64,000 nucleotides of DNA from Podarcis bocagei (Eukaryota). How positions within the stretch are numbered: position 1 is the first letter of the stretch; the number at the start of each line of letters is the position of its first letter. The stretch is taken from the NCBI GenBank assembly GCA_964188305.1, contig OZ076885.1; one strand, 5' to 3'. The notes under the pieces were generated by a model. That model had not been told where the DNA came from and ran no database searches. It worked only from the letters and a program-made list of their open reading frames with translations. Shown piece by piece: positions 2,508-59,825 of this stretch. A program made the position numbers and the translations under genes.

Positions 2508-3412
2508 CTATAGGGCTTCCTGTGTTTTCCTTGTAATGGGATTCTAATTTATTTCAGTGCCTCTAGAGTACAAGGCACCTCTGTACATAGCTATTAGCAG
2601 ATCATTAGGAAGTCAACACTCTTTGGCAGCAGTCCCAATGTCTAGTAAGCTTCACTTACTAGAAAGGAAGCCCCATTGAACACTCTTACTTCTTACTTCT
2701 GAGCTAACTCTCATAGGATTGCACAGCTTATGCACTGGCTATGGAAAATGTTGGGTTTTTTTAAAAAGTAAAGATGTATTCCTATTAACCTGTTGATATA
2801 TGAAGCAGGCGAGTTGAGCAGGCTTCTGATTCATTCTTAGTCTGTGAATTGGATTTAGATAATAGATAGACCTAATGCAGCACTTTTCTGATGATAATAT
2901 GTTCAATGTATTTTCAGTATGCCTCCTGACATCAGAACCACTACAGCCTACTTGAACAGGGCTGAGGCAGGACAGAGTTGGGGGCGGGGTGTTGGTGTGC
3001 ATGTGGACATGACAGCAGGAGTGCTAGAATGGCTTTACCAGTATATCTGTGCACCCTAAACCTTGCCACCAACCATGTCCAGTTAAGCTGCTGCTGTGAC
3101 GCTGATGTCAGGAGGGTAGCATTCCCCCCCCCCCCGGCTACTAGTGTGCATTTTTGTAATTAGGTATCATGTTTGCTAATCAATGCATTTCTAGTTTAAA
3201 AGTATGTATTTCTACTTTTTTTTGGGGGGGGGTCTATATTTTGCTGGTTTGTTTTACTTGTTTCTGTTAGGATCTCTGAAGACACTTCTTTGGATCCCCT
3301 GGCACAGACTTCTTTTTGTTTTAAACAGATCTCTGCAGCCATTTATGTCAGCACAAACCTCCTTCCTGGTATAGGATAGTACCAAGGAATAACATTTAAA
3401 CTGATCAACAAA

Positions 3413-3800
3413 ACATAGGAATGTAGATTTGGAAGGGGTCCAGAGACTCATCTAGTCCAGCCCCCTGCAATGCAGGAATCTCAGCTAAAGCATCCATGGC
3501 AGATAGTCATCAAATGTCTGCTTAAAAACCTCCAATGAAGGAGAGTTCACAATCTCCTGAGGGAGTCCATTCCACTGTCAAACAGCTCTTCCTCTCAGAA
3601 AGTTCTTCTTGATGTTTGGTTGCAAGTAACTTGAATCCATTGGATCAAGTCCTATGCCCTGGAGCAGGAGAAAACAAGCGTACTCCATCTTCCACGTGAC
3701 AGCCCTTCGTATATTTGAAGATGGCAACGATATTGCCTCTCGTTCTCTTTTCTAGGGTAAACGTACCCAACTCCCTCAACCATTTCTCATAAGGCATGGC
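3413..3800 (-). mobile_element. CR1 LINE 3' fragment (ORF2 C-terminus plus 3' UTR)
   Basis: ORF 3645-3863 contains PYEKWLRELGTFTLEKRTRGNIVAIFKYTKGCH, the typical CR1 ORF2 motif (YEERLxELGLFSLEKRRLRGD). 3' end reads ggactagatga..ccccttccaa..ctatg on the minus strand. Confidence 0.9.
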
Positions 3801-6369
3801 GATTGGTGAATTTCTGCCATCGATCTTGCACAGGATGTTGCTGTGTGGCAGAATCAATGTCATTGGAATCAGGAGGATGGAAACAGATCTAACACCTCTT
3901 GTTCACAACAAAAGCACACACTGCTTTTGGCCCCCAAATCAGGGTTTCCCTAATTAGGGTCTCCAGCCATAGGAGCCAACTCTTAGGGGCCGAGGGGTCT
4001 CTGCCCCCCCAAAAGTGTTGAGGGGGCTGCCCCCCAATTGATGGGGGTTGTTGATGGGGTAAATGAGAAGCTAGCTGCCAATTCCTATCACCACTGCCAC
4101 TACCACTGGCAAGTAATCCTTGATTGGTTCACAGGCAGACACTACTACCTGTCTGCTTATTCTGCACAGGAAAGTTCCTGGTTCATGTGAGATGAAGTGT
4201 ATGTGCCTCAGCTGACCAGGAGCAGATGTGTGAGTTGCCTCTTTGAGTGTGGCTTGCTGAGGGATCTCCAGACCCCTGTGGGAAAGGAAGGACCAAGTGG
4301 TGGAAGGGGAGCCACCTCCTTCCCTCTTCCCCATTGCCTCAGATAGTACAAAGTCCCCACTCATTGCTTCATGTATTGGGTTAGGATGCTCTGATTTCAT
4401 GGCTTCACAATGCACTATGTGCTTTGATTGGCTGCGCTAACTGTGCTGTCCAGTCAATCAAAGCCCTCACTTCATTGTGAAGTCATGAAGTCTTCATGGT
4501 CTGGGAATGGCAACTGCAATTGTTCTGTCATCTTGTTTTTAAAAACAAACCAACAAGCCCATAATGTAACACTGGAGCGGCATCAGAGAAAACTGGAATC
4601 TTGAAGGCAGAGAGTCAAAAGTGTGCCTCTGAGATGGGATAGCGTTTCTATAGCACAACAAAGTTTTGAGTGTCTGATCCCTGTCCATTCCTTATGGTCC
4701 ATGTGTCCTTTTGATAGGATGCAGTGAAAACAAAACAAAACAGTGCTTCTAGAGACAGAGAAAGACAGTCAGAAGGAGTGCTTGTGTGCTTCTACTTCAC
4801 CAAACAGTCTACTTTTCAGTTGTTAGAGGTTGATGCATTTGCTGCTGCATGTGCAGCAGGTTTCCCCCCCTGAACAGAATAATTTTGCAAGAGGTGGGTG
4901 GGTGCTTAGACATCACCTCTTTCCCCCAAAGTAGGAGAAAATAACTGGAGCCACTCTGTTTTCTTCATGGCACCAATACTTTCCATGGGATAAAAACTGC
5001 TTCTAAGGCATTTCTCTTTCCTACCATGCTGAAATGACAAAAGAGCTGCAGAGAAGCCCCTTAGAAAATAAATCTTTGTAGTTTTCTTGCATGCATGCCA
5101 GTGTTTCTTTCATGGAGCAATTAAATTCTTTACCCAAGGAGATCGGTGGGTAGCTGGGCATGTAAGAACATAGCCACGCACATACACATGTGTGAGCCAA
5201 ATATCTGATAATGCATAAATGTGTATAAATAAACAATAGTCCATCACTCTGCTGCAGATTCCTGGAATGCGTTCCATTTTTTAATTCCAGTTTTAAGGGC
5301 TTTGTGTCCTTGAGGATGCTGCTTCAGACAATAGGGTCCAAGGAGAGAAAGTGATGGCCGGCACAGTAACCACATCTAAACATGCACACACATGTATATA
5401 TTTCCACATCTATCTCAATGTTCTGAGCCACAAATTATTGCAACAAATTAGAAGACAGTCCACACTGAATCGGTGCTATTTGAATTGAATTAGTGTCAGC
5501 CCTGCTACACTCCACTCCCATTAACCTACAAAATTTATGAAGGAACACCGAGAATTAATCTGCAAATATATACTAATTCACACTGACCTTTTTCCAAGCT
5601 GAAGCCCTTTTAGCACTCGCGGTAGGTTTAACATTGCCCTACTGAGTGTTATTACAATGCGCTCAATGGTTGTCCGTAATTACATAATGCAAATGACATT
5701 TGCTTTTTTTGTTTGAGCATATTCCCTCAGATGTTTCCTCCTTTTTATCACACTCCTCGCACATCTGTGTCCCTAAAATGGCAGCGCAAACTCCTCCTCT
5801 TTCAGTCCCCAAGTTTCCCTTTCTCTCTTTGCTGTCTGTCACAGAGAAGCAGAGAGCACTTTAGAATTAGCACGGCTATGACATATCCTTCTGACACAGG
5901 TTATGTTGCCAGCTGGTAGGAACAGGTGTACACTGATTCTTACCATCAAATGGCAACACAGATTTGGCACTCCCCCAACGCACAGGCATGAAAAACCTGT
6001 TCTCTTCACAATTTTTTTTTTTTGGGGGGGGGAGATGAGATTGATGGACTTTTCTTTGACAAAACGTCAAGTGACTGTTCAGTCCCCTTTCCTTTGTCAC
6101 ATTGTTTAGGATTTTTCACCAGGACTTCCTGTGCGCCAGGCAAATGATTCATTCCTTTGTCCATGTTCTTGATCAGATTAAACCTTTGGCAGTAACTGCA
6201 TTAAAGCTGCTGCTTCACAATCCAGTGTTGGAAGGGCTGCATTGATTCCTCAGAAGCCAGCCTGCGCTGCATGCTAAAGAAACTCAGAGGAATGTTTTGC
6301 TTCAAAGGGTAAACATGAATCACAAAAGCATGGCACTGGGATCATTTTCCAACTTCTGCAGAAAATCAG

Positions 6370-7587: not shown

Positions 7588-8015
7588 GGGCCCTGCTAGT
7601 CCAGAGCAAGAAGGCATCTAAGTCCACCATCCTGTTTCTTCCAGTAGTGACCAGCCTCCCTAGTGTCTAGGGGGTACACAAATGAGATATGAAAGCAATC
7701 CCAGTTGTTTGTCTTTAGCAGTTGGTATTCAGAGACACACTGCTTCTGAACATGCATTTTAGCTCCCATTGTTAATAGTTGTTAATATTCTTCTCATCCA
7801 TTGATTTTTCTGGTCCAGCCTTCCCCAATCTGATGCTCCCTAAATATTGTTGGACTTCAGCTTCCAGCAACCCCACCCAATGGGAAGGGATGATGCAAGC
7901 TGCAATTCCAACAATGCTTGGAGGGCATTGGGTTGGGGAAGGCTTCTCGAGTCCCTCTTTTAAAGCCAACTAACTCAACAACCTTTAAGTACACCTTGTA
8001 ACATTAAATACCATA
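7588..8015 (-). mobile_element. CR1 3' fragment interrupted by a palindromic MITE
   Basis: Colinear with the CR1 end at 33487-33848 (catctaagtccaccatcctg; ggtattcagag; cctcttttaaagcca). Confidence 0.7.
7816..7945. mobile_element. ~130-bp palindromic hAT-type MITE
   Basis: TIR cagccttccccaa / ttggggaaggct, nested in the CR1 fragment. Confidence 0.75.
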
Positions 8016-8107
8016 AAATGCCTGACATGTTCTGGCTCATTCATCACTCTCAATGCCCTATTTGAGTGATCAAGGTACACAGGGCAAAGTCAATAAATAG
8101 TTGCACC

Positions 8108-8377
8108 AGGGCTCTTGTCCAAGACATATTGCTGCCTGTGATGCTCCACCACATTGCAAGATAACCTAACTGCCAGTTGAGTCTTACTTCAGCACTGTTG
8201 ATAGAACAGCTTCTTTCACTGCGTCTGAGGGCAACAGTCTAGCTTATGTGAGCACACAGGGCAGCCTGAGTGGCACTCACAATCCTATCCTTCAATAACC
8301 TTCAGCCACTCCCTGCTTCCCATCATCTACTATCTGAGGCTGCTGCCTCACTCTGCCTAATGGTAGTGCTGGCCTTG
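8108..8377. mobile_element. non-autonomous DNA element (cagggc..gccttg ends)
   Basis: End tgaggctgctgcctcactctgcctaatggtagtgctggcc is the reverse complement of gagctggccctaccattagacagagtgaggcag at ~23626; a related end lies at ~54533. Confidence 0.55.
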
Positions 8378-8589
8378 CTCCTACCCCATTTTTACAAGCA
8401 ACTGACAAGGCCCTGGCATACAAGGGATTATGCCACAATTCATGTGCTTTTATTAGTGCCTTTATTATTCAAGAGACTACAGGGGTTACAATACGTTTTT
8501 AAAAAAGGAATACCCTTCAGGCTTCCTGACTGCTTCATTTTCTCCACCCTGTGACCTGAAGCAGCATTTCCTGTTCTTTGGTGCACAAG

Positions 8590-8800
8590 TCTCATGGGGG
8601 ATAAATTTATCAGTGGTTACTAGTCATGATGGCTCTGCGGAACCTCAGCAGTATGCCTACTGAACATCAGTTGCTAGAGAGCAGCAACCAAAGAAGGCTG
8701 TTGCGATCATACTTCCCAGAGGCATATGGTTGGCCACTGTGGTAAACAATGTTGGATGAGATTGACCATAGGTTTAATCCAGCACAGCTCCTGAATGAGG
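8590..8800 (+). mobile_element. CR1 3' UTR fragment
   Basis: Colinear with 34600-34862 and antiparallel to 33487-33760 (gttggccactgtg; ggtttaatccagcacagctc). Confidence 0.65.
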
Positions 8801-9576
8801 TTCTTGCTAGAGTGCTTCCTATTGAATAGGTGAGTCCTAGCAGAGCCTGGGTGATGGATGCTTTGTTCAGCAGAATGGTTGGAGCAACCCAGTTCAGCCA
8901 CTCCCTGGTTGGATAAGCAGGGTATAAGTAATAAATTTGTTGTTGTTCTTGTTGTTGCTTTGATCTTGTGGGAAGCCCTAAGTCTCCTTACCTTTTGCAA
9001 CAGACTCCATGGCTAAAGTTTTTAGACAGGTACAAAGAGGAGAGCATGGTTTGGCTAAAACTGAAACATGTAGCTTTTGGAACCACTCCTGTATCACCAC
9101 CATTGTTTGAGCACTGTAGAGCAAGGAATGAAGCAGTGCTGAAACCTAAACTGAATTAATCATCCAGATGATTTACACTGGGAAGTTACCTGCTTGAAAT
9201 CTCATCAATGACATCAGTGACCAGTGGAGGTAGGAGGGGAGATGGGTCATAAAAGGAAATTGCCACAGTCACCCTTACCTTGCACACCAGCACATCTCCC
9301 TTTAGTTCCCCACCTCTTTCCCATCATCTCAATAAATATATCTGTATTTTAAAAGGAAGGTTCCATAGGCAATTCACGCAGCTGCTGTTCTCTCAGTAAA
9401 ATGACTAAGGTGATTCTCTGAAAATATAATTGGCTTCTCACTTCTGTGTATCGTTGTGCTATTCCATCACCTTTCCCTAACCCAACACCCTCCAGATGTT
9501 TTAGACTACAACTCCCATCAGCCCAAAGCAGCAGCACTCACATTGGATGCAAGTTTTGTGCAGTGCTTTGAAAACT

Positions 9577-27330: not shown

Positions 27331-27533
27331 AAAAGGTAAAGGGACTCCTGACCGTTAGGTCCAGTCGCGGACGACTCTGGGGTTGCGGCGCTCATCTTGC
27401 TTTACTGGCCGAGGGAGCCGGCGTACAGCTTCCAGGTCATGTGGCCAGCATGACTAAGCCGCTTCTGGCAAACCAAAGCAGCGCATGGAAACACTGTTTA
27501 CCTTCCCACCGGAGCGGTACATATTTATCTACT
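27331..27533 (-). mobile_element. Sauria SINE, 5'-truncated
   Basis: Reverse complement of 2088-2290 with more CpGs retained. TSD tgcactta at 27323-27330 and 27534-27541. Inserted into a mini-MITE. Confidence 0.95.
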
Positions 27534-28218
27534 TGCACTTACTTGGGCATAAATCCCATTTAACTCAGTGAGAGTAACTTCTTACTAAACATGCATAGGG
27601 TTGAATGAAAGGAAGCGCTGTCCTGAGTTTTCCAGCCTTTGGAGGTAACGTGGGCAAGTCTGAGGAGCAGGGCCTTTTCAGTTGTGGCCCCCACTCTATA
27701 GAATTGGTTCCCTCAGGTAGCTTGTCAGACTCATTTTGCTCATTTGTAGTAAAACTGGGAATAAATAACCTTGTTGGTTTTCAGGGTAAGTGTCAGAGAG
27801 TTATGACTGCCTTCAGAAACCTCCCTATTGCAGGCATTGAAGTCTTTTCCACCCTTGCCACTCTGCCACCTGTTGTCCTCAATCAGGAATGACATGCCCC
27901 GGGAATGGGGGGAAATGAGGTCATAAGAGCAGCTGTCTTGTGTCAGACCAAAGGCATATTTAGTCCAGCCTTTGGTTCTAAATGCATTGTGGCCAACCAG
28001 GTGCATATGAAAACCCCACAAGGGGAACATCAGCCCCAACCCCAATGAGAAGGAAAACCTTTGAAAAAATACAACCACTGACAGAAGGACTGGTTGAAGG
28101 TTAAATTCTCCCCTCTCCATTCCACCTTGCTGGCGTGAGTCCAGTAGGGCTTGGATTTGACACCTCGCTGGTCACACTCCCTCTCCCAACAAGGCAGAAC
28201 TGCTACACTAGTGTAAAC

Positions 28219-30473: not shown

Positions 30474-31120
30474 AGGGATGGGAGAACCTGCCAGTTTTGA
30501 TTTCCCTCACTTTTTCATTTTTCCATGTTCTCCACATTCGTTCGTAATTTTTGTTAAAAAATTCTCATCAAACTTCTTCTGCGTTTTAGTGAGAATGTCT
30601 ACTAATGTAGCCATTTTTGTATGCAATTTCACCTAACTTGCATTTCCCCCCCAAAGCTATTCTCCTTAATATAATGTATTTTTGTACATTCTTTTAATTA
30701 CAGTGGTATCTTGGGTTAAGTACTTAATTCGTTCTGGAGGTCCGTACTTAACCTGAAACTGTTCTTAACCTGAAGCACCACTCTTGCTGCTGCCGTGCCG
30801 CTGTAGAACAATTTCTGTTTTCATCCTGAAGCAAAGTTCTTAACCTGAAGCACTATTTCTGGGTTAGCGGAGTCTATAACCTGAAGCGTATGTAACCTGA
30901 AGTGGTAACCCGAGGTACCACTGTACATATACACACTTTATGCTGCTATGTGCATTTCTGTACATATTACTTGACTGGAGTACTGCTTTGCAAAATTCAG
31001 AGGACTGCAAATTTTAAAGGGGGGGGGCTGTGTTTTGTTTCAGGTTTTTATTTTGGAAAGTGTGAATTAGTTTTAGGCTTGCCTTTCAAAGCAAACTGAA
31101 TCAAATTTGTCTCCATTCCT
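30474..31120. mobile_element. AT-rich MITE, copy 2 (host of a Tc1/mariner MITE)
   Basis: agggatggggagaa ... ttgtctccattcct inverted ends; homologous to 29-435. Confidence 0.75.
30701..30923. mobile_element. Tc1/mariner (pogo/Tigger-like) MITE, copy 1
   Basis: TIR cagtggtatcttgggtta / taacccgaggtaccactg, TA TSD on both sides, repeated taacctgaa motif. Confidence 0.92.
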
Positions 31121-44985: not shown

Positions 44986-45191
44986 CTCCAGATGTTGCTG
45001 GACTACAACTCTCATTAGCCTGAGTTAATATGGTGAATAGTCAAGGCTGCTGGGAGTTGCAGTCCAACCAAGGGCACCATTTTGGCTACCCTGGGTATAA
45101 ATGATGCAGGGATGACTGGTTAAAAAACTCCACACCCTTAGCCCTGCTACTCCAGTTGAATCTCATCCCTGTCGGACTTACTTTTGAGCAA

Positions 45192-45985
45192 AGCCTCTCC
45201 TCCTTCCGAAGGGGAGGGATTGTGAGTGGGAGACGATTCCCGTGTCACACAGGGGGCATTATGCCCCCTGACCTCTCATCATCACTGGTGTGCCACGCCT
45301 CCCAGTTGTGCACCCAATCGGGTGCCACCGCGGGGGCATGGTTTAGCCGCTCAAATGCAGCCGCGCCAGCTCTCCCCGCCATTGTGCTTCAGATTTTCCA
45401 CGAGTCACCCACCCACCACTCCCTTTAGGGTGTAGCTTCTTGCCCAACCTTGTTATGGGCCCATGGTTGGTCGCCCTGGTTGCCTAGGGGGCCTGGTAGG
45501 AGTTTTTTTCCAATTGGCAAATTGGCACCGGCCTCTTGGTTTTTTTCATCTACCTCGTAGCAATCGCCACAACCTTCTTGGTATTTGGCAGTTAGGCATT
45601 GGAATGTGTTGTTGGTGTATGGAAGGGCAAGGTGTGGCCATTGCCTACCCCGTCATTTATAGGTATTCCGTTAAAGGAATCCGGCGGTCGTGGATCCTGT
45701 CCAATGCCCTGTGTGGTGGGGGGCCATGGCACGACCCTCGGTGACATCAGGGGAGAGCTCATAGTTGTATTTGCATCAACAGGCTCCCCCTACTGGTGGT
45801 TAACCCCTCATCAAACTCACTCCTCTCCGAGTGGGTGGAGTCAAATTTGCTGTGGTCCAATGCCTAAGCCAATACCTTCTCACATGCTGTAATCAATAAA
45901 GTTGTGGCCTTTTCGTGCTCATTAACCTAATATACTGTGTCCACGTGTTTTCATTCCCCAAGTGGGGATCGGGTCCTCGAATCAC
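45192..45985 (+). mobile_element. ~790-bp AA-bounded non-coding element, copy A (possible Ngaro/DIRS-type solo or non-autonomous element)
   Basis: Colinear end to end with 54739-55521. Same termini agcctctcctccttcc ... ggtcctcgaatcac, AA on both sides, aataaa at 45895-45900. Superfamily is inferred. Confidence 0.8.
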
Positions 45986-47911
45986 AAGCATGTGTTAGTG
46001 CACATCCCTCTGCCATTGCCACATCCTCACCTGGTTTGTATGTTGTTGTTTTTTTAAAAAATCCCCTGATCCAAGCGGTCAAAATAAATTACTTTGGCAG
46101 TCTGTCCCATGAACTGCTTGGGGATTCAAACCAGGATGAAAAAGAATACAGCCGCTGCCTATAGAAATTCAAACAAAGAAACTGCAGTTCCCAATTAGTC
46201 CTTAGCATAATTGCCAATGCTGTTCAAGTTGTAACAGGTACACAGGGGATAGACTGCTCGGTGCTATTATTTTATGCTCCTCTTGCTGCACTTACTTTCA
46301 CAACAGCATTCTTTTTCTGTACATCAGGGCCAACATAACCACTGTTTCATTCCAATTTGCTGGTGTCAAGTGGACATGCTTTCATAATTAGGAGGTGTTT
46401 CATCAATATTGAATTTCCGTTGTTGTGTTTTTTAAAAAAAAAATATTGAAGATTTTCTTGGTTGACAGAAGTACATGCCTTGTCTCTTTTTTCAGGTTGT
46501 ACAGTCTTTCTTACAAATCAGTTACATTTGTTGTGAAACATCAGTGTTGAGTACAGTATAAGGTTGGGGAAGAAGAGGAGGGAGAGGAGGAGTGGTGAGG
46601 CTTATATCCTTTTGTATAGTGTACATGTGGGGTTCTGTGTCAGCGTCAACTGGGTAGGTTCTCTTTCTATTCGTTTATTACATTTTCTTGGTGGTGAAAG
46701 GTATTGTGGGGCAGGGTGTGGCTAGTTATCTGTGGTTGGCTGCAGTGGGATTTGCTTGCATTTGTGTGTGTGTGGGGGGGGGCTTGTTGGGTCAGGTAAG
46801 CCAGATTGATTCATATGCTGCTGTCAGTGGATTCTTGTTGTTGTCTTGTTGGGCTGTGTATGTGATAAAGGGGAGCCATTCTATTTGTCCCCACGTCAGT
46901 TTCAGTTTATTGGTTAAGTTTCCCATACAATTTGATACCATTGGTCCATGTTTACTCCTGGCAGCTCTCTCTAGTGTCTGGATATGAGGCTTCTGAGAGG
47001 ACACGGGTTATAAGCTCTTTATAATGTGAGTGGTCATTATTATCTTGGAAGATGTTCAGTAGCTGTCAGTTCTGGGGTGAGTTCTAATACCTGTTTAGTT
47101 ATTTTGCATATCTCTTGTAGGACTGCTGTCCAGAAGGGTTGGATTTGGGGACATTCCCACCACATGTGGTGCAACCTCTCCAACATCTTGGTGGGGTTTC
47201 TGGGTGTATCAGTGCCAGTTTCCATGGTGTTAAGTACTACCTGTAGGTGAGTTTCAGAGTGAGTTCCCTTCTTTGGGCTGATATCGACTTAAAGGGAGGT
47301 TTAGACCACATTCTGATCCATTGGGTGGGGTTCATTTCATAGCCTATGTCGTGCTCCCATTGTTCTTTGATTGTGTCAAGGGTGTTTGTAGGATTTTGGA
47401 GCATGTAGTTGATGGTGTGTTAGCCAAGGTATTTGCGTGTCCCCTAGTTTGTCTTGCATTTCTTGTGTTGGTATGGGTTTGTTGTTTTTGTAGACGCCTT
47501 TTAGACAGTGTAGGCCTTTGGCTTGCCAGGTTTTTATCTGAAGGTTTTGTGCTGCGTGTTGAAATAGTGGGTGATAGGCAAGAGGAGTTAGTGGGGATGG
47601 GGATAGTTTGCCTACTTTTCCCTTCCAGTGTAAACCTGTTCAGTGTTGTGGGGATTTTCTTTAGTTTGCTTTAGAGAAATGGGTATGTTGTTGTGGGGAT
47701 ATTTTTGATGGTATCTATTGTTTCGTCTCGTCTTCTAGAATATATGGGATTATGTGGCGTAATTGGTCGGTGATGTAATATAATTCTATGTTGGGGATTC
47801 ACCATCCTTCTGAGGAGGGGAGTGCAGGTATTTGGGGCTTAATCATGGCTTTTTTGTGGGAAAATAAACAAGTGTAGTTTTTTTCCTGCCACTTCTGCAG
47901 TTGGGTTAGAG

Positions 47912-48770: not shown

Positions 48771-49997
48771 TCCATATTGTTAATTCTGCATTTTGCTGAG
48801 GCTTGGGAGTAAATTTGTTTGAGGGTTTGTAGGAAGTTGGGGCCAAAGTTCATGTTAGTTAATACTGCTAATAGATATTTCCATTCTAAGCAATCAAAGG
48901 CTTTAAGGATGTCTAGGGACATGATTGTCAGCGGGAGTTTGATTGTTTTGCTGTGTTCTGTCAGATTCAGTAGTTCTGTCAGATTCAGTAGATTCCTAAT
49001 GGGGTCTGTTATGTTACAACTGGGGCAAAGCCTGCCTGGTCCAGGGCGATTCGTTTGTGTAGGAAGATTTTTAGGTGGTTAGCCAGGATTGATGTGAATA
49101 TCTTGTAGTCTTGATTTGTCGATGAGATTGGGCAGTATGATTCTATCTTTGAGTGGTTTGGGAATAGAGACTATTTTGGAAAAGGTCTAGGTTTTGGGGA
49201 TGGGCTCCCCTTTTATGCTGTCATTTCATGGGTGGGTCATATAAGACATCAGGGGTTCTTTGAATCTGTTGTAGAATTCTGCTGTATATCCATCCGGGCC
49301 TGGGGCTTTGTGTGGTTTCAGGTTTTTGAGTACCGTCTCTGTTTAACTTAGTGTAGGCATAGTGCCATCTTCTTTGCATTTTCAAAAAGGCCTTAGATTG
49401 CAGCCTTACTTTACAATAAAGTCCAGTAAAATCAGTGGGACTTACTTTAGATTAAGTGTGTACAGGATTCTACTGTTGACGTTCTTCTCTTTAACTTTTA
49501 ATGGATGCAGCATGTTCAGCTGATGATTTCAGCAAGCACTCTGACACATCTTCAAGAACTTCATGTGGGATAATACCTGATTGAGATGGCTAGCCACATG
49601 TAAGTACCACTTGGACTCATTCGTCCCAATGCTTACAGTTATTTGGTCTTGAATTTCATCCCCCAGTATGTTTCCTATTTTCTCCTTGTTGCACAGCCCT
49701 GCAGAAATGCTTCAAAGTCTACCACTGACTTAAGTGATCTCAAATAATTTCAGTATGTTGTTTATTTACCTCTGCTCGGAGTTATTAGCTGCATTGTAAT
49801 TGTATTGTGATTTTAATTGTACGTTATTTTTAAACTTTTGTACATCCCCTTGAGACAGAGATGGGCAGTGGTAGATGACATGTATCAGTTAATTAATTTG
49901 TGTCATCTGCATAAATTGCCACATGGCTGGTCATCTTATTATTATTGACCAGCAATTTGGCCATCCATGTATCAGGCGGTAAATATGGAAGAAGATA

Positions 49998-50239
49998 CAG
50001 TGGTACCTCAGGTTAAATACTTAATTCGTTCTGGAGGTCCGTTCTTAACCTGAAACTGTTCTTAACCTGAAGCACCACCTTAGCTAATGGAGCCTCCTGC
50101 TGCTGCCGCGCCGCCGGAGCACGATTTCTGTTCTCATCCTGAAGCAAAGTCCTTAACCTGAAGCACTATTTCTGGGTTAGCGGAGTCTGTAACCTGAAGT
50201 GTATGTAACCTGAAGTGTATGTAACCTGAGGTACCACTG
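49998..50239. mobile_element. Tc1/mariner (pogo/Tigger-like) MITE, copy 2
   Basis: TIR cagtggtacctcaggtta / taacctgaggtaccactg; TA TSD. Confidence 0.94.
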
Positions 50240-50424
50240 TATTCAGGGCAAAGAAGCTGGAGAAGTAGTGCCTCTGTATGCACTCTTCAAGTGGCAACAT
50301 ATCTTGGCTTACAGTAATGCTCTTTAGTCAGCCTTCTATATTCTCATTTTAAGTCTTTTGTATCTGTCTTGCATCCTGGGAGCTGTATGATTTTCCCCCC
50401 TGCATACAAATATGATAGTCAGCC

Positions 50425-54644: not shown

Positions 54645-55616
54645 CAGAGCTTTCCAAACTGTGTGTCATGACACCTTATTGTGTCGGCTGCAGTGTGTAG
54701 GTGTGTCATGCAAATACTCTTATAAGGGGTTTGTTTAAAGCCTCTCCTCCTTCCAGAGGGGAGAAGTTGTGAGTTGAGTGGGAGCCATTTCCTGCGTTGG
54801 CAGGGGGCATTTCGGCCCCTGCTCAGCTGTCCTGGCTGCTGTGTCATGCCCCCTGGCAGCCAGCCAATCAGGCGGAGGCTCAGGGGCAGGGTTTAGCCAC
54901 TCAAATGCGGCTGTGGCAGCACTTCCCTCTCATTGCGCTGCTGGGTTTCATCAGATCACCCACCCTCCCTCCCTTTAGTTAATTGCTTTGTTCTTGACCT
55001 TGCTATGGACCCGTGGTTGGTCGCCTTGGTTGTCCAAGGGACCTGGTAGGAATTTTTATCCAACTGGCAAATTGGCACCAGCCACTTGGTTTTTTGCCTA
55101 CCTCATAGCAAATCGTCACAACTTTTTAGGTATTGGTGGTTAGGCATTGGAATATGTTTGTGTATTGGAGGGCAGGGTGTGGCCATCGCCTACCCCTCCA
55201 CTTTAAAGGAATCCAGCAGTCGTGGATCCTGTCTGACGCACTTGCTGGTGGCTAGGGCCATAGTACGACCCCCGGTGATATCAGGGGGAGCTTTCAGTTG
55301 TATTTGCATCAACAGGCTCCTCCTACTGGTGGTTAACCCTTGTTAGACTCACCCCTTCCTTAGGGGGTGGAGTCACGCTCTGTTGTTTTATCCAATGCCT
55401 AAGCCAATACCTCTCACATGCTGTAATCAATAAAGTTGTGGCCTTTTTTAGCCCATTAACCTAATATACTGCGTCCATGTGTCTTTCTAATCCTCAAGCA
55501 GGTGGCAGGTCCTCGAATCACAATCTCTGGTTTGCTAGTTAAACCAAATCACTGTGTTGCAAAATGATGCATGTCTAAAAAGTGTGTCACCAACCTGAAA
55601 AGTTTGGAAAGCTCTG
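54645..55616. mobile_element. hAT (Charlie-like) MITE split by the AA-bounded element
   Basis: Perfect 16-bp TIR cagagctttccaaact / agtttggaaagctctg. Flanks ttctagag / ctctagac fit the Charlie NTCTAGAN target preference. Confidence 0.9.
54739..55521 (+). mobile_element. AA-bounded element, copy B
   Basis: See copy A at 45192-45985; AA at 54737-54738 and 55522-55523. Confidence 0.8.
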
Positions 55617-56700
55617 CTCTAGACTATCACAATAGAACACATGGGATTTTACAAGAACACTTTGAGAAATAATGTTGTTTGGATTGTTTTAGATATATTC
55701 ACTTCGTATTAAAAAAAAAATCTTATCGAATTCTTACATTGAAAAAATCAAAATATTCCTAAACACCTGATTTTGCAAGAGGACAAAATCATGGTTACTC
55801 AAAACATTTTACTCACAGAAATCCTCTCTGTATACCCAATTGAAGAGTTGAGAGGAAAAACAGGCAAAGTCCACACTAGAATAGGGGTTGTTGGTTTTTT
55901 TTTTGCCAAGTAATAATCCAAAATATTTGGAGGGCACCAGATTGGCAAAAGCTGGCCTAACAGTTGTGCTGACATCTGTGAGGGTCTTCAAATTAAAGCT
56001 TTTCTTGAAAGCCAGTCCAACAATTTGAACTTGCCTTCCTCTCTTTTTTGGTAGGGAAGAAGTTAAGAAATAAGGCTAGGAAAATCCCCACTGTTTGTGA
56101 TATCTACTATAAAACAGCTCCAGGCAGCAACAGTATCTGTCACCCAAATGCTGAGCAGCTTTGCTGCAGTGACAGTGTATTTCCAGATGCTTTTATTTCT
56201 ATTATTTGGAGAGTGAGATGACCGAGATGAACCCATGAAAACTAATGTGTGGACAATCTTCTTTCATTACCTGGCATCCACTCAGCTCTCTGACATCTAA
56301 GAGACACCGGAAACAATTTTCACATCATATTCACTTAGCAGATGAGATGTAAACTGAGCTCCTTGGCGCATGACCTGGAGGTTACACTGTCTGTCGCTGT
56401 ATAGAGATTTCTAAGGAGCACTTGTGCTGCTGTTGCACAGCTGTTTCGGTTTTGGGTGGTGGTTTTTATTCCGGCTCCTCAGCACAACTGGAAGATACAG
56501 TAAGAAATAAAAGTGGCTTTTGCATCTCTGTGATGCAGATTAAGTGGATAAAGGATGCTAACTTCCCCGGCAGACAAAAAGCTGTGTGGAAAAAGCAATA
56601 GGCATACATTACAGGGCAAAGTGGTCATCAGGCACTCTGCTGGAGCAGCAGAATTGGTAGTGTAGGCCAACTGGAAAGTACAGCAGTATGAATGCTATTG

Positions 56701-57048
56701 CATGCACTCCAACATTTCTCCAATGGAAATAGGGACGTCCTATTCAACAACAACAACAATTTTACTATTTATATCCACCCATCTGACTGGGTTGCCCCAG
56801 CCACTCTGGGTGGCTTCCAACATTTATAAAAACATAATAAAACATTAAACATTAAAAAAAACTTCCCTATGCAGGGCTGCCTTTAGATGGCTCTGGGGGT
56901 CAGATAACTCCATACCCTCTAACATTTCTCTGATGAAAATAGGGATGTCCTAGGGAAAAGCAGGACATTCCGGGATAAAATCAGAAACTGGGATGGCTTC
57001 TGTAAATCTGGGACTGACCCTGGAAAATAGGGGCACTTGGAGGGTCTG
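56701..57048. mobile_element. composite TIR element with captured L2 tail, copy 1
   Basis: Left end present twice (56701 and 56911) around an L2 3' fragment. Right end ttggagggtctg; flanks ctattg/ttattg. Confidence 0.8.
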
Positions 57049-57364
57049 TTATTGTATGTCCACAGACCTGGGGAAAAGAAATTAAAAAACACCCAAATCA
57101 CAGAGGTAAAATGTATGGGTACTCATATAAACTAAGAAGAAAAGCAAATCAGGATACAATTAAGCTTGCAAAATCCCTTTTCAGGTTTTTGCAGAAGAAT
57201 GGCGAAATCCAAGAATCCTTGCCAAAGTTTCCATTATTATTTTGTTTGTGTCAGCAAATAATTAAGCCAGATACCATCCAAAGTCCTTCCTGGGTACTTC
57301 AATAGGATGAAAGTAAACGATCTGTTCTGCTCATCTTTGCAAAATTTGCATACAAAAAGAAGAA

Positions 57365-57518
57365 GGCTAGATAGCTCAGTTGGTTAGCGCGTGGTGCTGC
57401 TACGGCCAAGGTTGCAGGTTCAATCCCTTTATGGGACAGCTGTATAATTCTGCATTGCAGAGGGTTGGACTAGATGATCCTCAGGGACCCTTTCAACCTT
57501 TACAACTATGATTCTAAG
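57365..57518 (+). mobile_element. tRNA-Ile-derived SINE with CR1 tail
   Basis: Head resembles tRNA-Ile(AAU) (tagctcagttggttag.gcgtggtgct...gccaaggt.gc.ggttc.atccc). Tail ctgcattgcagagggttggactagatga..ctatgattct matches the CR1 3' end at 3413-3480. Confidence 0.88.
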
Positions 57519-58761
57519 TAGTAATGCTTCTGCTATAGGGATTGAAAAGTGCAGCTGCCATGTTCTTAAAGTGTCAGGTGAACAGGATCAGTGGGAGGAA
57601 GTGATCCACATGTGGCTGTCCAAAATTTTGTTGCCACACTCTCAGTTGAGTACCACTGATATATTCATCATTAGCAGAAAGTCCCTGGGGTTGCTTGTGG
57701 GCGGGGGATGGGAATCAATGTTTTGAAAAAAGTTGTTAAAATTGGTTCAGTTTTGAACAATTCAGTCCACCATCTTGATTCAAAGTGGCATTGAATCATA
57801 CCCAAACACGGGCTCCTTGCAAAATTTGCTTTCAATGTTGTAAAATGCATAGATAACAGAGAAAGAGACAAGCAATTTTCCAAGCTGTATAGTAGCTTCT
57901 GGCTGTTTGATGTGGCTATGCCTGTCATCAAAAGGTCAGTTAGAATCCAAAACCACGTTACTTATGCAGTCATTGGGATCCTGACAAAAATTGTGTCCCT
58001 GTAGCAACCTCTCCATCACTCTAGTCCTCCTGTAACACTTGGAAGTTCTCATTTTGTAGAGCATCACTATCTCATTTTTAGTCTCCTTGCTTCTGCTTCA
58101 CGTTCCCGGGCAGCTGCCATTGAATCAACATGCTTTTCAGCCCTAGAAGTGAATGCTCATTATTTAAAATGTAAGACTAATTACCTAAGGTTAATCTCAT
58201 ACGACAAATTGGCTGAATTAAGCATTTGATGTTGCATGGATTAATTTGACATGTTACTACCGCTACTATAATTTCATATTTATTTTAGTTTCCAACATCA
58301 GGCACCATGAGCTGCACACATGATTGACCAAGCCAGTGAGAAGTAAATGAGCCAGAAAATGCATACAACTATTTTGCTTGTATCGTGATGCTTTCTGCTC
58401 CATAGGAGTTGTGTCTTCAGGTTAGAATTACCAAAGATGACAGGAGAGGACCAAAACACGTGCTCTGTGCTCCATCTCTGAGGACCAGATGGATCAGCAC
58501 ACATTTTTACAAAAAGCCTTGCAGTGCCCAGTGAACTTTCAACATGGTCTTCTGTTGGAACAATCTCAAGAGTAAGTGCAGTACTAGCTAAGATGTTTAA
58601 GACCTGTTGTTACTATTACTCTGGATTCCTTAATCCAATTGCCTCTTAAAGATCCAGACATATACATTTGATATGAATATATGACTATGAGCTATTGATC
58701 AGACAGTCTCTTTCACATCCCACAATAGACATCCTATGGCATGGTGCAGATTTCCGACATA

Positions 58762-58978
58762 TAGTGGTACCTTGGGTTAAGCACTTAATTCATTCTGGAG
58801 GTCCGTTCTTAACCTGAAACTATTATTAACCTGAGGTACCACTTTAGCTAATGGGGCCTCCCGCTGCCGCCACTACGCGATTTCTGTTCTTATCTTGAAG
58901 CAAAGCTCTTAACCTGAGGTATTATTTCTGGGTAGCGGAGTCTGTAACCTGAAGTGTCTGTAACCCGAGGTACCACTG
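58762..58978. mobile_element. Tc1/mariner (pogo/Tigger-like) MITE, copy 3
   Basis: TIR (t)agtggtaccttgggtta / taacccgaggtaccactg; TA TSD. Confidence 0.92.
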
Positions 58979-59460
58979 TATTATTTCAGTAGAAATTATT
59001 GCCATTGCCATCTGTGAAGCAAACGTATAAAGCTTCCCCTATAGGGGAATATGATCCATTGTTTTAAAAAGAGTAACGTATGCCCTCTTGGATTATCACT
59101 AGGTACGCTTTGCCTTTTGTACAGACACCAAAGACTTATCAGAGTGATTATTTGAATTGCATATCTTCTGCAGCCATTCGGCTGCAAACAAAATATAGGG
59201 GAAAGCCTTGTCCTTCCTTTGCAACTTCAGAACTCTGCTCTCCTAAAACGCAGCATCAGCTGCCTGGCCAGGCATCAGCCTGAGTCTCACCTTGCAGCAG
59301 CCCTCGCCATCTGGGAGATCAGTGCTCTCCTCGCAACAGTGCCTGCAGATGGGGACATTGTGTGCATCTTAGCACCAAGTGCAATGCAAGAAGGATCTCC
59401 TCTCTTATAAAGTTATACATTTGATGGGGTCTCCATTGCTGGATATCCAGAACTGGAATG

Positions 59461-59825
59461 CATACCATCCAACATTTCTCTAATGAAAATAAGGATGTCC
59501 TACTCCATAATAATAATAATTTTATTATTTATACCCTACCAATCTGACCGAGCTACCCCAGCCACTCTGGGCAGCTTCCAACACATATAAAAACATTGCA
59601 AATAAAAAAAAAAACTTCCCTATACAGGGCTTCCTTCATATGTCTTCTAAAGGTTGTCTTCTCCTTGGCTTGGGGGTTGCATAACTCCACATCCTCTAGC
59701 ATTTCTCCAATGAACATAAGGATGTCCTTAGGAAAAGTGGGACATTCCGGGTTCTAATCAGAAACTGGGATGGCTTCTGTAATTCTGGGACTGTCCCTGG
59801 AAAATAGGGAGACATGGAGGATCTG
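59461..59825. mobile_element. composite TIR element with captured L2 tail, copy 2
   Basis: Same architecture as 56701-57048 (second left end at ~59688); gaatg duplicated on both flanks. Confidence 0.8.

What the first reader, a model, noticed from the sequence alone, without database searches (positions are those of the whole stretch)
45190..45987. ~790-bp element with precise AA|...|AA boundaries and no LTR, TIR or poly(A) hallmarks (second copy 54737-55523): candidate tyrosine-recombinase retroelement derivative
Seen: the two diverged copies share exactly the same termini, aa|agcctctcctccttcc ... ggtcctcgaatcac|aa, with unrelated flanks. Both landed inside other repeats, so the empty sites can be rebuilt. 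Copy A gives ggacttacttttgagc-aa-gcatg, matching the mini-MITE pattern ggacttacttctgagt-aa-a(c/t)atg (e.g. ~23142-23164) with a single AA. Copy B gives gttt-aa-tctctggtttgctag inside an otherwise intact hAT MITE. So only AA is duplicated or shared. There is no TG..CA at the true ends, no 4-6 bp integrase TSD, no TIR and no LINE tail, yet there is an AATAAA ~85-90 bp from the 3' end, as in a retroelement terminal repeat. Established: DIRS/Ngaro elements integrate via a tyrosine recombinase without classical TSDs, and Ngaro elements carry split direct repeats (A..B A B). Inference: this is a solo A+B unit or a non-autonomous passenger of such a system, with AA as the crossover core.
Basis: partly seen in the sequence, partly recalled or inferred. 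Interest (0 to 1): 0.7.

Follow-up and report, generated by a model that had tools for sequence, protein, structure and literature searches.

The report
Solo end unit of Ngaro retrotransposon
These two 0.8-kb repeats are the lone end piece of a known kind of jumping gene (Ngaro, which likely inserts with a tyrosine recombinase at AA sites) whose full-length relatives sit elsewhere in the same genome, so the feature is an ordinary remnant; only the strict one-sidedness of its AA ends hints at how it likely inserts.

Summary
Both copies are the A2-spacer-B2 end unit of an Ngaro tyrosine-recombinase (YR) retrotransposon. A member with the same kind of ends has the layout A1-interior-B1-A2-spacer-B2, with a single AA at the B1|A2 junction (L129). 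Young sister families are intact: zinc-finger Gag, RT, RNase H, YR, SGNH, no methyltransferase. No copy has a 4-6 bp TSD (39 of 39). Empty host repeats carry one AA. One refinement: the right AA is invariant (123 of 123 insertions) but the left is not (107 of 123; p=1.8e-5), so the right AA is likely the element's and the left the target's. Solo AB units are published (Cafeteria Ngaro; T. cruzi SIRE), and this scan found one before in another genome (e1-9526640). Whether solos arise by A1xA2 recombination after insertion or are inserted directly is open; solos equal or outnumber the B1xB2 product. New member of a known kind; interest 0.25.

The parts
45190..45191 (+). Copy A, left AA: likely the target dinucleotide
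   Evidence: left dinucleotide AA in 107 of 123 insertions, others AT/TA/TC/CA/AG/GG/GT
45192..45407 (+). Copy A, repeat A (about 216 bp; equals A1/A2 of full-length elements)
   Evidence: L129 A1 3131-3348 = A2 8184-8401, 93%; boundary mapped by alignment
45408..45589 (+). Copy A, spacer present only between A2 and B2 (163-168 bp in young sister families)
45495..45554 (+). U-rich internal-loop motif (GGTAGG-U run-stem-U run-CTACC), ENE-like, inside the spacer; function untested
   Evidence: motif seen in 9 of 9 spacers printed; lead from earlier notes e1-9953311, e1-9970803; fold z-score not significant; no Rfam match
45590..45985 (+). Copy A, repeat B (about 400 bp; BLAST start 45586)
   Evidence: follows the SGNH end in 30 of 30 loci; L129 B1 7783-8184 = B2 8584-8986, 97%
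45895..45900 (+). AATAAA poly(A)-signal-like hexamer in B
   Evidence: present in both B1 and B2 of 4 of 4 long elements checked
45986..45987 (+). Copy A, right AA: likely element-borne junction core
   Evidence: AA in 123 of 123 right ends and 36 of 36 internal B1|A2 junctions
54737..54738 (+). Copy B, left AA
54739..54958 (+). Copy B, repeat A
54959..55137 (+). Copy B, spacer with ENE-like motif at 55045-55102
55138..55521 (+). Copy B, repeat B (AATAAA at 55429-55434)
55522..55523 (+). Copy B, right AA
54645..55616 (.). Host hAT-type MITE interrupted by copy B (TIRs CAGAGCTTTCCAAACT; 8-bp flanks TTCTAGAG / CTCTAGAC match 6 of 8)

Best explanation
Each copy is the A-spacer-B end unit of an Ngaro retrotransposon, likely left behind when a full-length element (A1-gag-RT/RH-YR-SGNH-B1-A2-spacer-B2) lost everything between its identical A1 and A2 repeats after insertion. 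Shown: the anatomy, the family link, a single AA at the internal B1|A2 junction and at empty sites, an invariant right AA and a preferred but variable left AA. Inferred: the internal B1|A2 join templates the end-to-end junction of the cDNA; the YR opens that junction just 3' of its AA and joins it just 3' of a genomic dinucleotide that is usually AA (weak upstream preference, purine at -4), so nothing is duplicated; later A1xA2 recombination leaves the solo, and B1xB2 recombination leaves A1-interior-B. Identity as an Ngaro solo unit is about 0.97 likely; the confidence given covers the post-insertion route too.
For: 30 of 30 YR loci fetched carry homology to the element downstream of YR (B-part in all 30, followed by the A/spacer part in most). 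30 of 30 loci found with a query of the SGNH end plus the first ~26 bp of B continue through B at 81-94% identity to copy A. L129 has A1...B1-A2-spacer-B2 and the junction GAACCAC-AA-AGACTC, 76% to copy A. L130 (B 90% to copy A) has a YR frame (PF00589, E 1.3e-4, below cut-off) and an SGNH frame. Young sisters: RVT_1, Phage_integrase over cut-off, GDSL/SGNH, zf-CCCH, repeats 99-100% identical; R-K-HxxR-W-Y residues aligned in 3 of 4 YRs, the fourth (L124) runs on differently at its C-terminus (motif from recall). Empty sites. In the sister family solos are interleaved with full-length units, up to 99.9% identical. Collapse after insertion is seen once: L172 and L173 share flanks at 99.5%, one full, one lacking A2-spacer-B2. 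Published solo AB units: PMC8547959, PMC6681497 (passages). Junction-core model: PMC7192593 (passages).
Against: No full-length element of copy A's own subfamily was found: the exact end-to-start junction pattern gave 0 matches, and the best complete member is 76% identical and internally deleted. Host recombination alone would be expected to favour B1xB2 (about 400 bp, 0.8 kb apart) over A1xA2 (about 215 bp, 6-7 kb apart), yet solos are as common as interior-B ends in this family (212 vs 209 exact matches) and outnumber them in a sister set (38 solo, 5 A-interior-B, 3 unresolved, 21 full); in its youngest cohort (at least 96% to the L126 unit) the split is only 7 solo to 5. The L172/L173 pair could be an assembly collapse and shows B1xB2, not A1xA2.
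Confidence: 0.62

Rival explanations
1. Same element, but solos are made during transposition: a short cDNA or circle holding only B-A2-spacer (from early closure through the B repeat, or excised from a parent copy) carries an intact B|A junction and is integrated by the YR at a new AA site.
For: Solos at 99.1-99.9% identity to full-length units, e.g. 5 solos beside 1 full copy in one young clade. Solos equal or exceed the B1xB2 product. Short A-interior-B elements join the end of A directly to a variable 3' piece of the interior in 10 of 13 directly joined cases, which looks like faulty reverse transcription that was still integrated.
Against: Both routes give identical sequence, so nothing here separates them. 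Identical young repeats recombine fastest (general knowledge of solo LTRs). Long A-interior-B copies may be removed by selection or missed by exact patterns. No permuted A-spacer-B-A-interior-B element was seen among 21 full pairs or 47 YR loci, so free use of any B|A junction is not supported.
Confidence: 0.3
2. An independent non-autonomous passenger that copies itself from solo to solo with borrowed Ngaro proteins (as once argued for T. cruzi SIRE).
For: Thousands of candidates genome-wide (4185 first-look candidates); several solo-rich clades without a sampled full-length member; the unit holds a poly(A) signal and an ENE-like motif.
Against: A solo lacks the internal B1|A2 join needed to rebuild its ends. 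Solos are spread among full-length units in the tree rather than forming one lineage. Full-length sampling was biased to intact YR frames, so older parents are under-sampled.
Confidence: 0.05
3. A solo LTR of a DDE-integrase element, or a non-autonomous Helentron-type rolling-circle element inserting at TT/AA with a terminal hairpin.
For: Poly(A) signal and about 800-bp length resemble an LTR; a small hairpin near the A start and a weak 15-nt inverted match between the ends (I5) resemble Helentron features (recalled).
Against: No TG..CA and no 4-6 bp TSD in 39 of 39 copies; the unit is split into A and B by YR/SGNH coding sequence in long members.
Confidence: 0.02

Closest known systems
Solo AB repeats of Ngaro retrotransposons in Cafeteria burkhardae (PMC8547959, passages read)
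   Same: Isolated A+B units scattered in a genome holding A1-[ORFs]-B1A2B2 elements, attributed to recombination of 5' and 3' repeats.
   Different: Vertebrate host; a 160-180 bp spacer between A and B; AA core and its left/right asymmetry were not in the passages read.
Xenopus Ngaro-like DIRS-53_XT / DIRS-54_XT (PMC9210276, passages read)
   Same: A1...B1 A2 B2 split direct repeats (A 236 bp there, 212-235 bp here), gag, RT/RH, YR plus SGNH ORF, no MT domain.
   Different: B is 152 bp there, 400-435 bp here; 'solo' and 'target site' do not occur in that paper's main text. No sequence comparison was possible (Repbase not available).
SIRE of Trypanosoma cruzi, the A2-B2 region of VIPER (PMC6681497, passages read)
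   Same: A + short exclusive internal piece + B; the origin (remnant or mobile passenger) is left open there too.
   Different: VIPER clade, YR before RT, spacer about 30 bp.
DIRS1-like junction-core integration model (PMC7192593, passages read)
   Same: [quoted passage not shown]
   Different: Trinucleotide and inverted repeats/ICR there; dinucleotide and split direct repeats here, with mismatches found only on the left.

Membership tests
Ngaro YR retrotransposon (parent element) | Split direct repeats A1...B1 A2 B2, internal repeats downstream of YR (PMC4157794, PMC9210276 passages) | tested here: met
   L129 with the finding's end family; young sisters, 31 of 47 YR loci scored cleanly as one left end, one junction, one right end
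Ngaro YR retrotransposon (parent element) | RT/RNase H and tyrosine recombinase on the same strand, no DDE integrase | tested here: met
   RVT_1 and Phage_integrase hits, no integrase hit; tblastn pieces of RT and YR in family-linked loci L124, L130-L138; RNase H read from recalled D-E-D-D motifs, no Pfam RNase H hit
Ngaro YR retrotransposon (parent element) | No methyltransferase domain (separates Ngaro from PAT and DIRS1) | tested here: met
   No MT Pfam hit in 15 ORFs at E<=0.05; the L123 pol ORF ends just after the RNase H motifs and overlaps YR
Ngaro YR retrotransposon (parent element) | SGNH hydrolase ORF after YR (amphibian Ngaro, PMC9210276) | tested here: met
   Lipase_GDSL/GDSL_2 hits in 5 of 5 such ORFs, over cut-off only in L124
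Ngaro YR retrotransposon (parent element) | RT phylogeny inside the Ngaro clade | not testable with these tools
   No reference Ngaro/PAT/DIRS sequences were available; no such tree was built
Solo AB repeat of Ngaro | A followed by B, no coding interior, element-type ends and unrelated flanks | tested here: met
   no tblastn hit of gag/pol/YR/SGNH anywhere in the window
Solo AB repeat of Ngaro | Origin by recombination of 5' and 3' A repeats at the same locus | tested here: inconclusive
   No full/solo allele pair found; 4 of 4 runs laid carry copy A in place, no empty allele seen
Solo LTR (Gypsy/ERV) | TG..CA ends and 4-6 bp TSD | tested here: not met
   0 of 39 copies
DIRS1-like | Inverted terminal repeats and ICR | tested here: not met
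   Repeats in long members are direct
ENE (U-rich internal loop RNA element) | U-rich internal loop closed by stems that binds the poly(A) tail | tested here: inconclusive
   Motif conserved in 9 of 9 spacers with one G-C to A-U swap in the outer stem (by eye); single folds not significant; alignment fold was cut short at the 3' side and showed no compensatory pairs; no Rfam hit; tail binding untestable

The most novel reading that the evidence does not exclude
Vertebrate Ngaro elements integrate by a polar reaction: only the newly built end junction is used, the element always donates the AA at its 3' end, and the target supplies the left dinucleotide. The 0.8-kb A-spacer-B unit and short A-interior-B forms are by-products of reverse transcription that the YR inserts directly, not later deletion scars. 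Families with 99-100% identical repeats in this genome would make this testable.
Probability: 0.3. Interest if true: 0.55.

Novelty: new member of a known kind. Interest (0 to 1): 0.25.

Why it matters
As a feature it is ordinary: a solo remnant of a known retrotransposon group, useful for repeat annotation, because such units are easily mislabelled as solo LTRs or unknown repeats. The modest added value is mechanistic. How split-direct-repeat YR elements integrate is still modelled rather than shown in the papers read. The one-sided mismatch (16 of 123 left, 0 of 123 right), the absence of permuted elements and the high share of solos are constraints on that model, and the young intact sister families offer material to test it. 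[quoted passage not shown]

Tried and rejected
Exact end-to-start junction pattern in the genome: 0 matches; explained by subfamily differences once L129 was found. Search with the 5' 251 bp returned solos or short/deleted copies, no full-length element. One search translated an L060 stretch in a frame that did not show the SGNH motif; the SGNH link rests. Solo-LTR and Helentron readings rejected. Rfam: two weak matches far below gathering score, taken as chance. PDB sequence search of the pol ORF: only weak RT matches, best E 0.0012, none for RNase H. Orthologous empty site: contigs of 4 of the 24 listed runs (organisms A, B, D, E) bridge the left junction in all 4 and the right junction in 3 (X13 not among the listed pieces there); no joint skipping exactly the element was listed, though 140 joints were not shown. 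PMC3783388: none of my five terms occurred. Literature search 'Ngaro' + 'lizard genome' + 'DIRS': 0 papers. Rows dropped before counts: L025, five non-AA 'left' matches were judged by eye to be internal or unrelated motif hits, leaving three true non-AA left ends (L121, L122, L168); L097 (spurious A hit); one of 8 empty-site cases gave overlap -4. No supplements were opened; Repbase/Dfam could not be searched.

Full report
Observation. The two copies are real: 45190-45987 and 54737-55523 align at 76.3% over 816 columns, with the stated ends and unrelated flanks. A search of the own genome (1.6 Gb, unnamed) gave 4185 first-look candidates and 40 scored matches, 84-91% identical apart from the copy itself. 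In 39 copies scored (L025 dropped), the ends were sharp, none was TG..CA, and the longest repeat shared by the two flanks was 0-3 bp. Copy B lies in a hAT-type MITE whose empty copies show one AA at that point in 10 of 11 loci.

Finding the parent. An exact end-to-start junction pattern found nothing. Two loci from a 5'-end search (L036, L060) broke from the element and rejoined it at position 397, after a shared foreign stretch. Searching with that stretch plus the first ~26 bp of B gave 30 loci, all continuing through positions ~397-798 (repeat B) at 81-94% identity; in L113 B is followed at once by the whole unit. Extending it (L129) showed A1 (3131-3348) ... B1 (7783-8184), A2 (8184-8401), spacer, B2 (8584-8986), with the junction GAACCAC-AA-AGACTC. 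L129 is 76% identical to copy A and internally deleted. Closer relatives (B 83-90%) carry decayed RT, YR and SGNH sequence before a single B (L130-L138). Independently, all 30 Phage_integrase loci fetched (of 54 matches) had homology to the element downstream of YR. These are young sister families with A of 212-235 bp, spacer 163-168 bp, B 403-436 bp, an A2-to-B2 unit of 800-816 bp and repeats 99-100% identical. Their ORFs hit zf-CCCH, RVT_1, Phage_integrase and GDSL/SGNH and no methyltransferase; the pol ORF ends after RNase H-like motifs (motifs recalled). That is the Ngaro layout described in PMC9210276 and PMC4157794 (passages). The finding is therefore the A2-spacer-B2 unit: A 45192-45407, spacer to about 45589, B to 45985. 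The window holds no Ngaro coding sequence.

The AA core. The internal B1|A2 junction reads AA in 36 of 36 cases in young elements. Pooling 123 non-redundant insertions of this and the sister families, the right end is AA in 123 and the left in 107; the others are AT 6, TA 4, TC 2, CA, AG, GG, GT (Fisher p 1.8e-5). Within the finding's own family alone the difference is 5 of 39 against 0 of 39 (p 0.055). Non-AA left ends occur in elements whose repeats are 100% identical (L122, L168), so mutation is an unlikely cause. Seven of 8 insertions with a usable empty homologue give a modal overlap of exactly 2 bp. Inference: the element runs AGCC...CACAA and is joined 3' of a target dinucleotide that is usually AA; nothing is duplicated. 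There is a weak preference upstream of the target (purine at -4 in 31 of 39 and 48 of 52 starts) and little downstream. This fits the junction-core model for DIRS elements (PMC7192593, passages), with an added polarity. No permuted element was seen: none of the 21 paired A starts lie 0.8 kb apart (counted from coordinates), and no A1 was preceded by a B end in 47 YR loci.

How solos arise. A1xA2 recombination would leave this unit; B1xB2 would leave A1-interior-B. Both exist. Exact patterns count 212 spacer-to-B and 209 interior-to-B joints in this family (lower bounds, with unequal subfamily coverage). In a sister family 14 of the first 30 of 147 A-spacer joints are solos. Of 88 exact A starts of one sister subgroup, 42 form 21 full elements, and the 46 singles are 38 solos, 5 A-interior-B and 3 unresolved; most of those solos are older, and among those at least 96% identical to the L126 unit the split is 7 solos to 5. 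In a tree of 52 solo and 40 full-length units, solos are interleaved with full units and reach 99.9% identity. One duplicated locus has a full element in one copy and lacks A2-spacer-B2 in the other (L172/L173), which shows collapse after insertion unless it is an assembly error. Against recombination alone: B is longer and closer than A, yet solos are not rarer; and short A-interior-B elements join the end of A directly to a variable 3' interior piece in 10 of 13 directly joined cases among 31 loci examined. I put collapse after insertion at about 0.6, direct insertion at 0.3 and an independent passenger at 0.05. Copy A is present in contigs of 4 of 4 runs laid, from four coded organisms, so it is old and gave no empty allele.

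The spacer. After settling the identity I consulted earlier notes of this scan, which proposed an ENE-like motif before the second poly(A) signal (e1-9953311, e1-9970803). The motif GTAGG-U run-stem-U run-C(C/T)AC is present in 9 of 9 spacers printed and absent from the three stretches before B1 that I printed; AATAAA is in both B copies. Folding energies are not unusual, Rfam has no match, and my alignment fold was cut too short to test the outer stem. It stays a lead. ENEs are known to aid a plant retrotransposon (PMC12501189, search listing only).

Comparison and verdict. Solo AB repeats are described for Cafeteria Ngaro (PMC8547959, passages), and T. cruzi SIRE is the A2-insert-B2 region of VIPER with the same open question of origin (PMC6681497, passages). 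This scan reported a similar solo in another genome (e1-9526640). All testable Ngaro features were met; RT phylogeny against references and Repbase/Dfam could not be tested, and the founding papers were not read. New member of a known kind; interest 0.25. The polar-integration and direct-solo reading is the boldest one left (probability 0.3, interest 0.55).

Noticed in passing
G000, loci L121-L128 and L151-L190: At least three young Ngaro groups with intact ORFs and 99-100% identical repeats; 90 exact B|A junctions for one group. Likely recently active.
   Followed up: partly
L172 (C19:21435100-21445000) and L173 (C19:83873700-83883600): The same insertion in two duplicated segments 62 Mb apart, 99.5% identical; one full-length, one lacking A2-spacer-B2. 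Real collapse or assembly artefact.
   Followed up: partly
G000:C17:23791560 and 23792368: Two B|A junctions 808 bp apart, suggesting a tandem extra A-spacer-B unit.
   Followed up: no
L091-L119 (e.g. L092, L095, L103, L105, L108, L109, L116, L119): Short elements of A joined directly to 119-1167 bp of the interior's 3' end plus B; the break on the A side clusters at about 190-237, the interior break varies.
   Followed up: partly
L183, right end near 8155 (oriented): The right flank of a young element begins AAaagcctct, like the start of the finding's family; possibly inserted at the end of an older solo.
   Followed up: no
L060:1250-2600 and L094: Family pieces nested in or next to each other in opposite orientation.
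   Followed up: no
L122 and L126, about 3600-4450: RT region replaced by or carrying a tandem repeat array in this young subgroup, with YR and SGNH frames intact; possibly a non-autonomous but amplifying variant.
   Followed up: no
window 57364-57493: 130-bp repeat 88% identical to a stretch inside L129's interior, probably an unrelated insertion there.
   Followed up: no
window 30699-30925, 49995-50241, 58759-58971; 2082-2290 / 27332-27540; 56699-57048 / 59459-59825: Other dispersed repeat families in the window, not examined.
   Followed up: no
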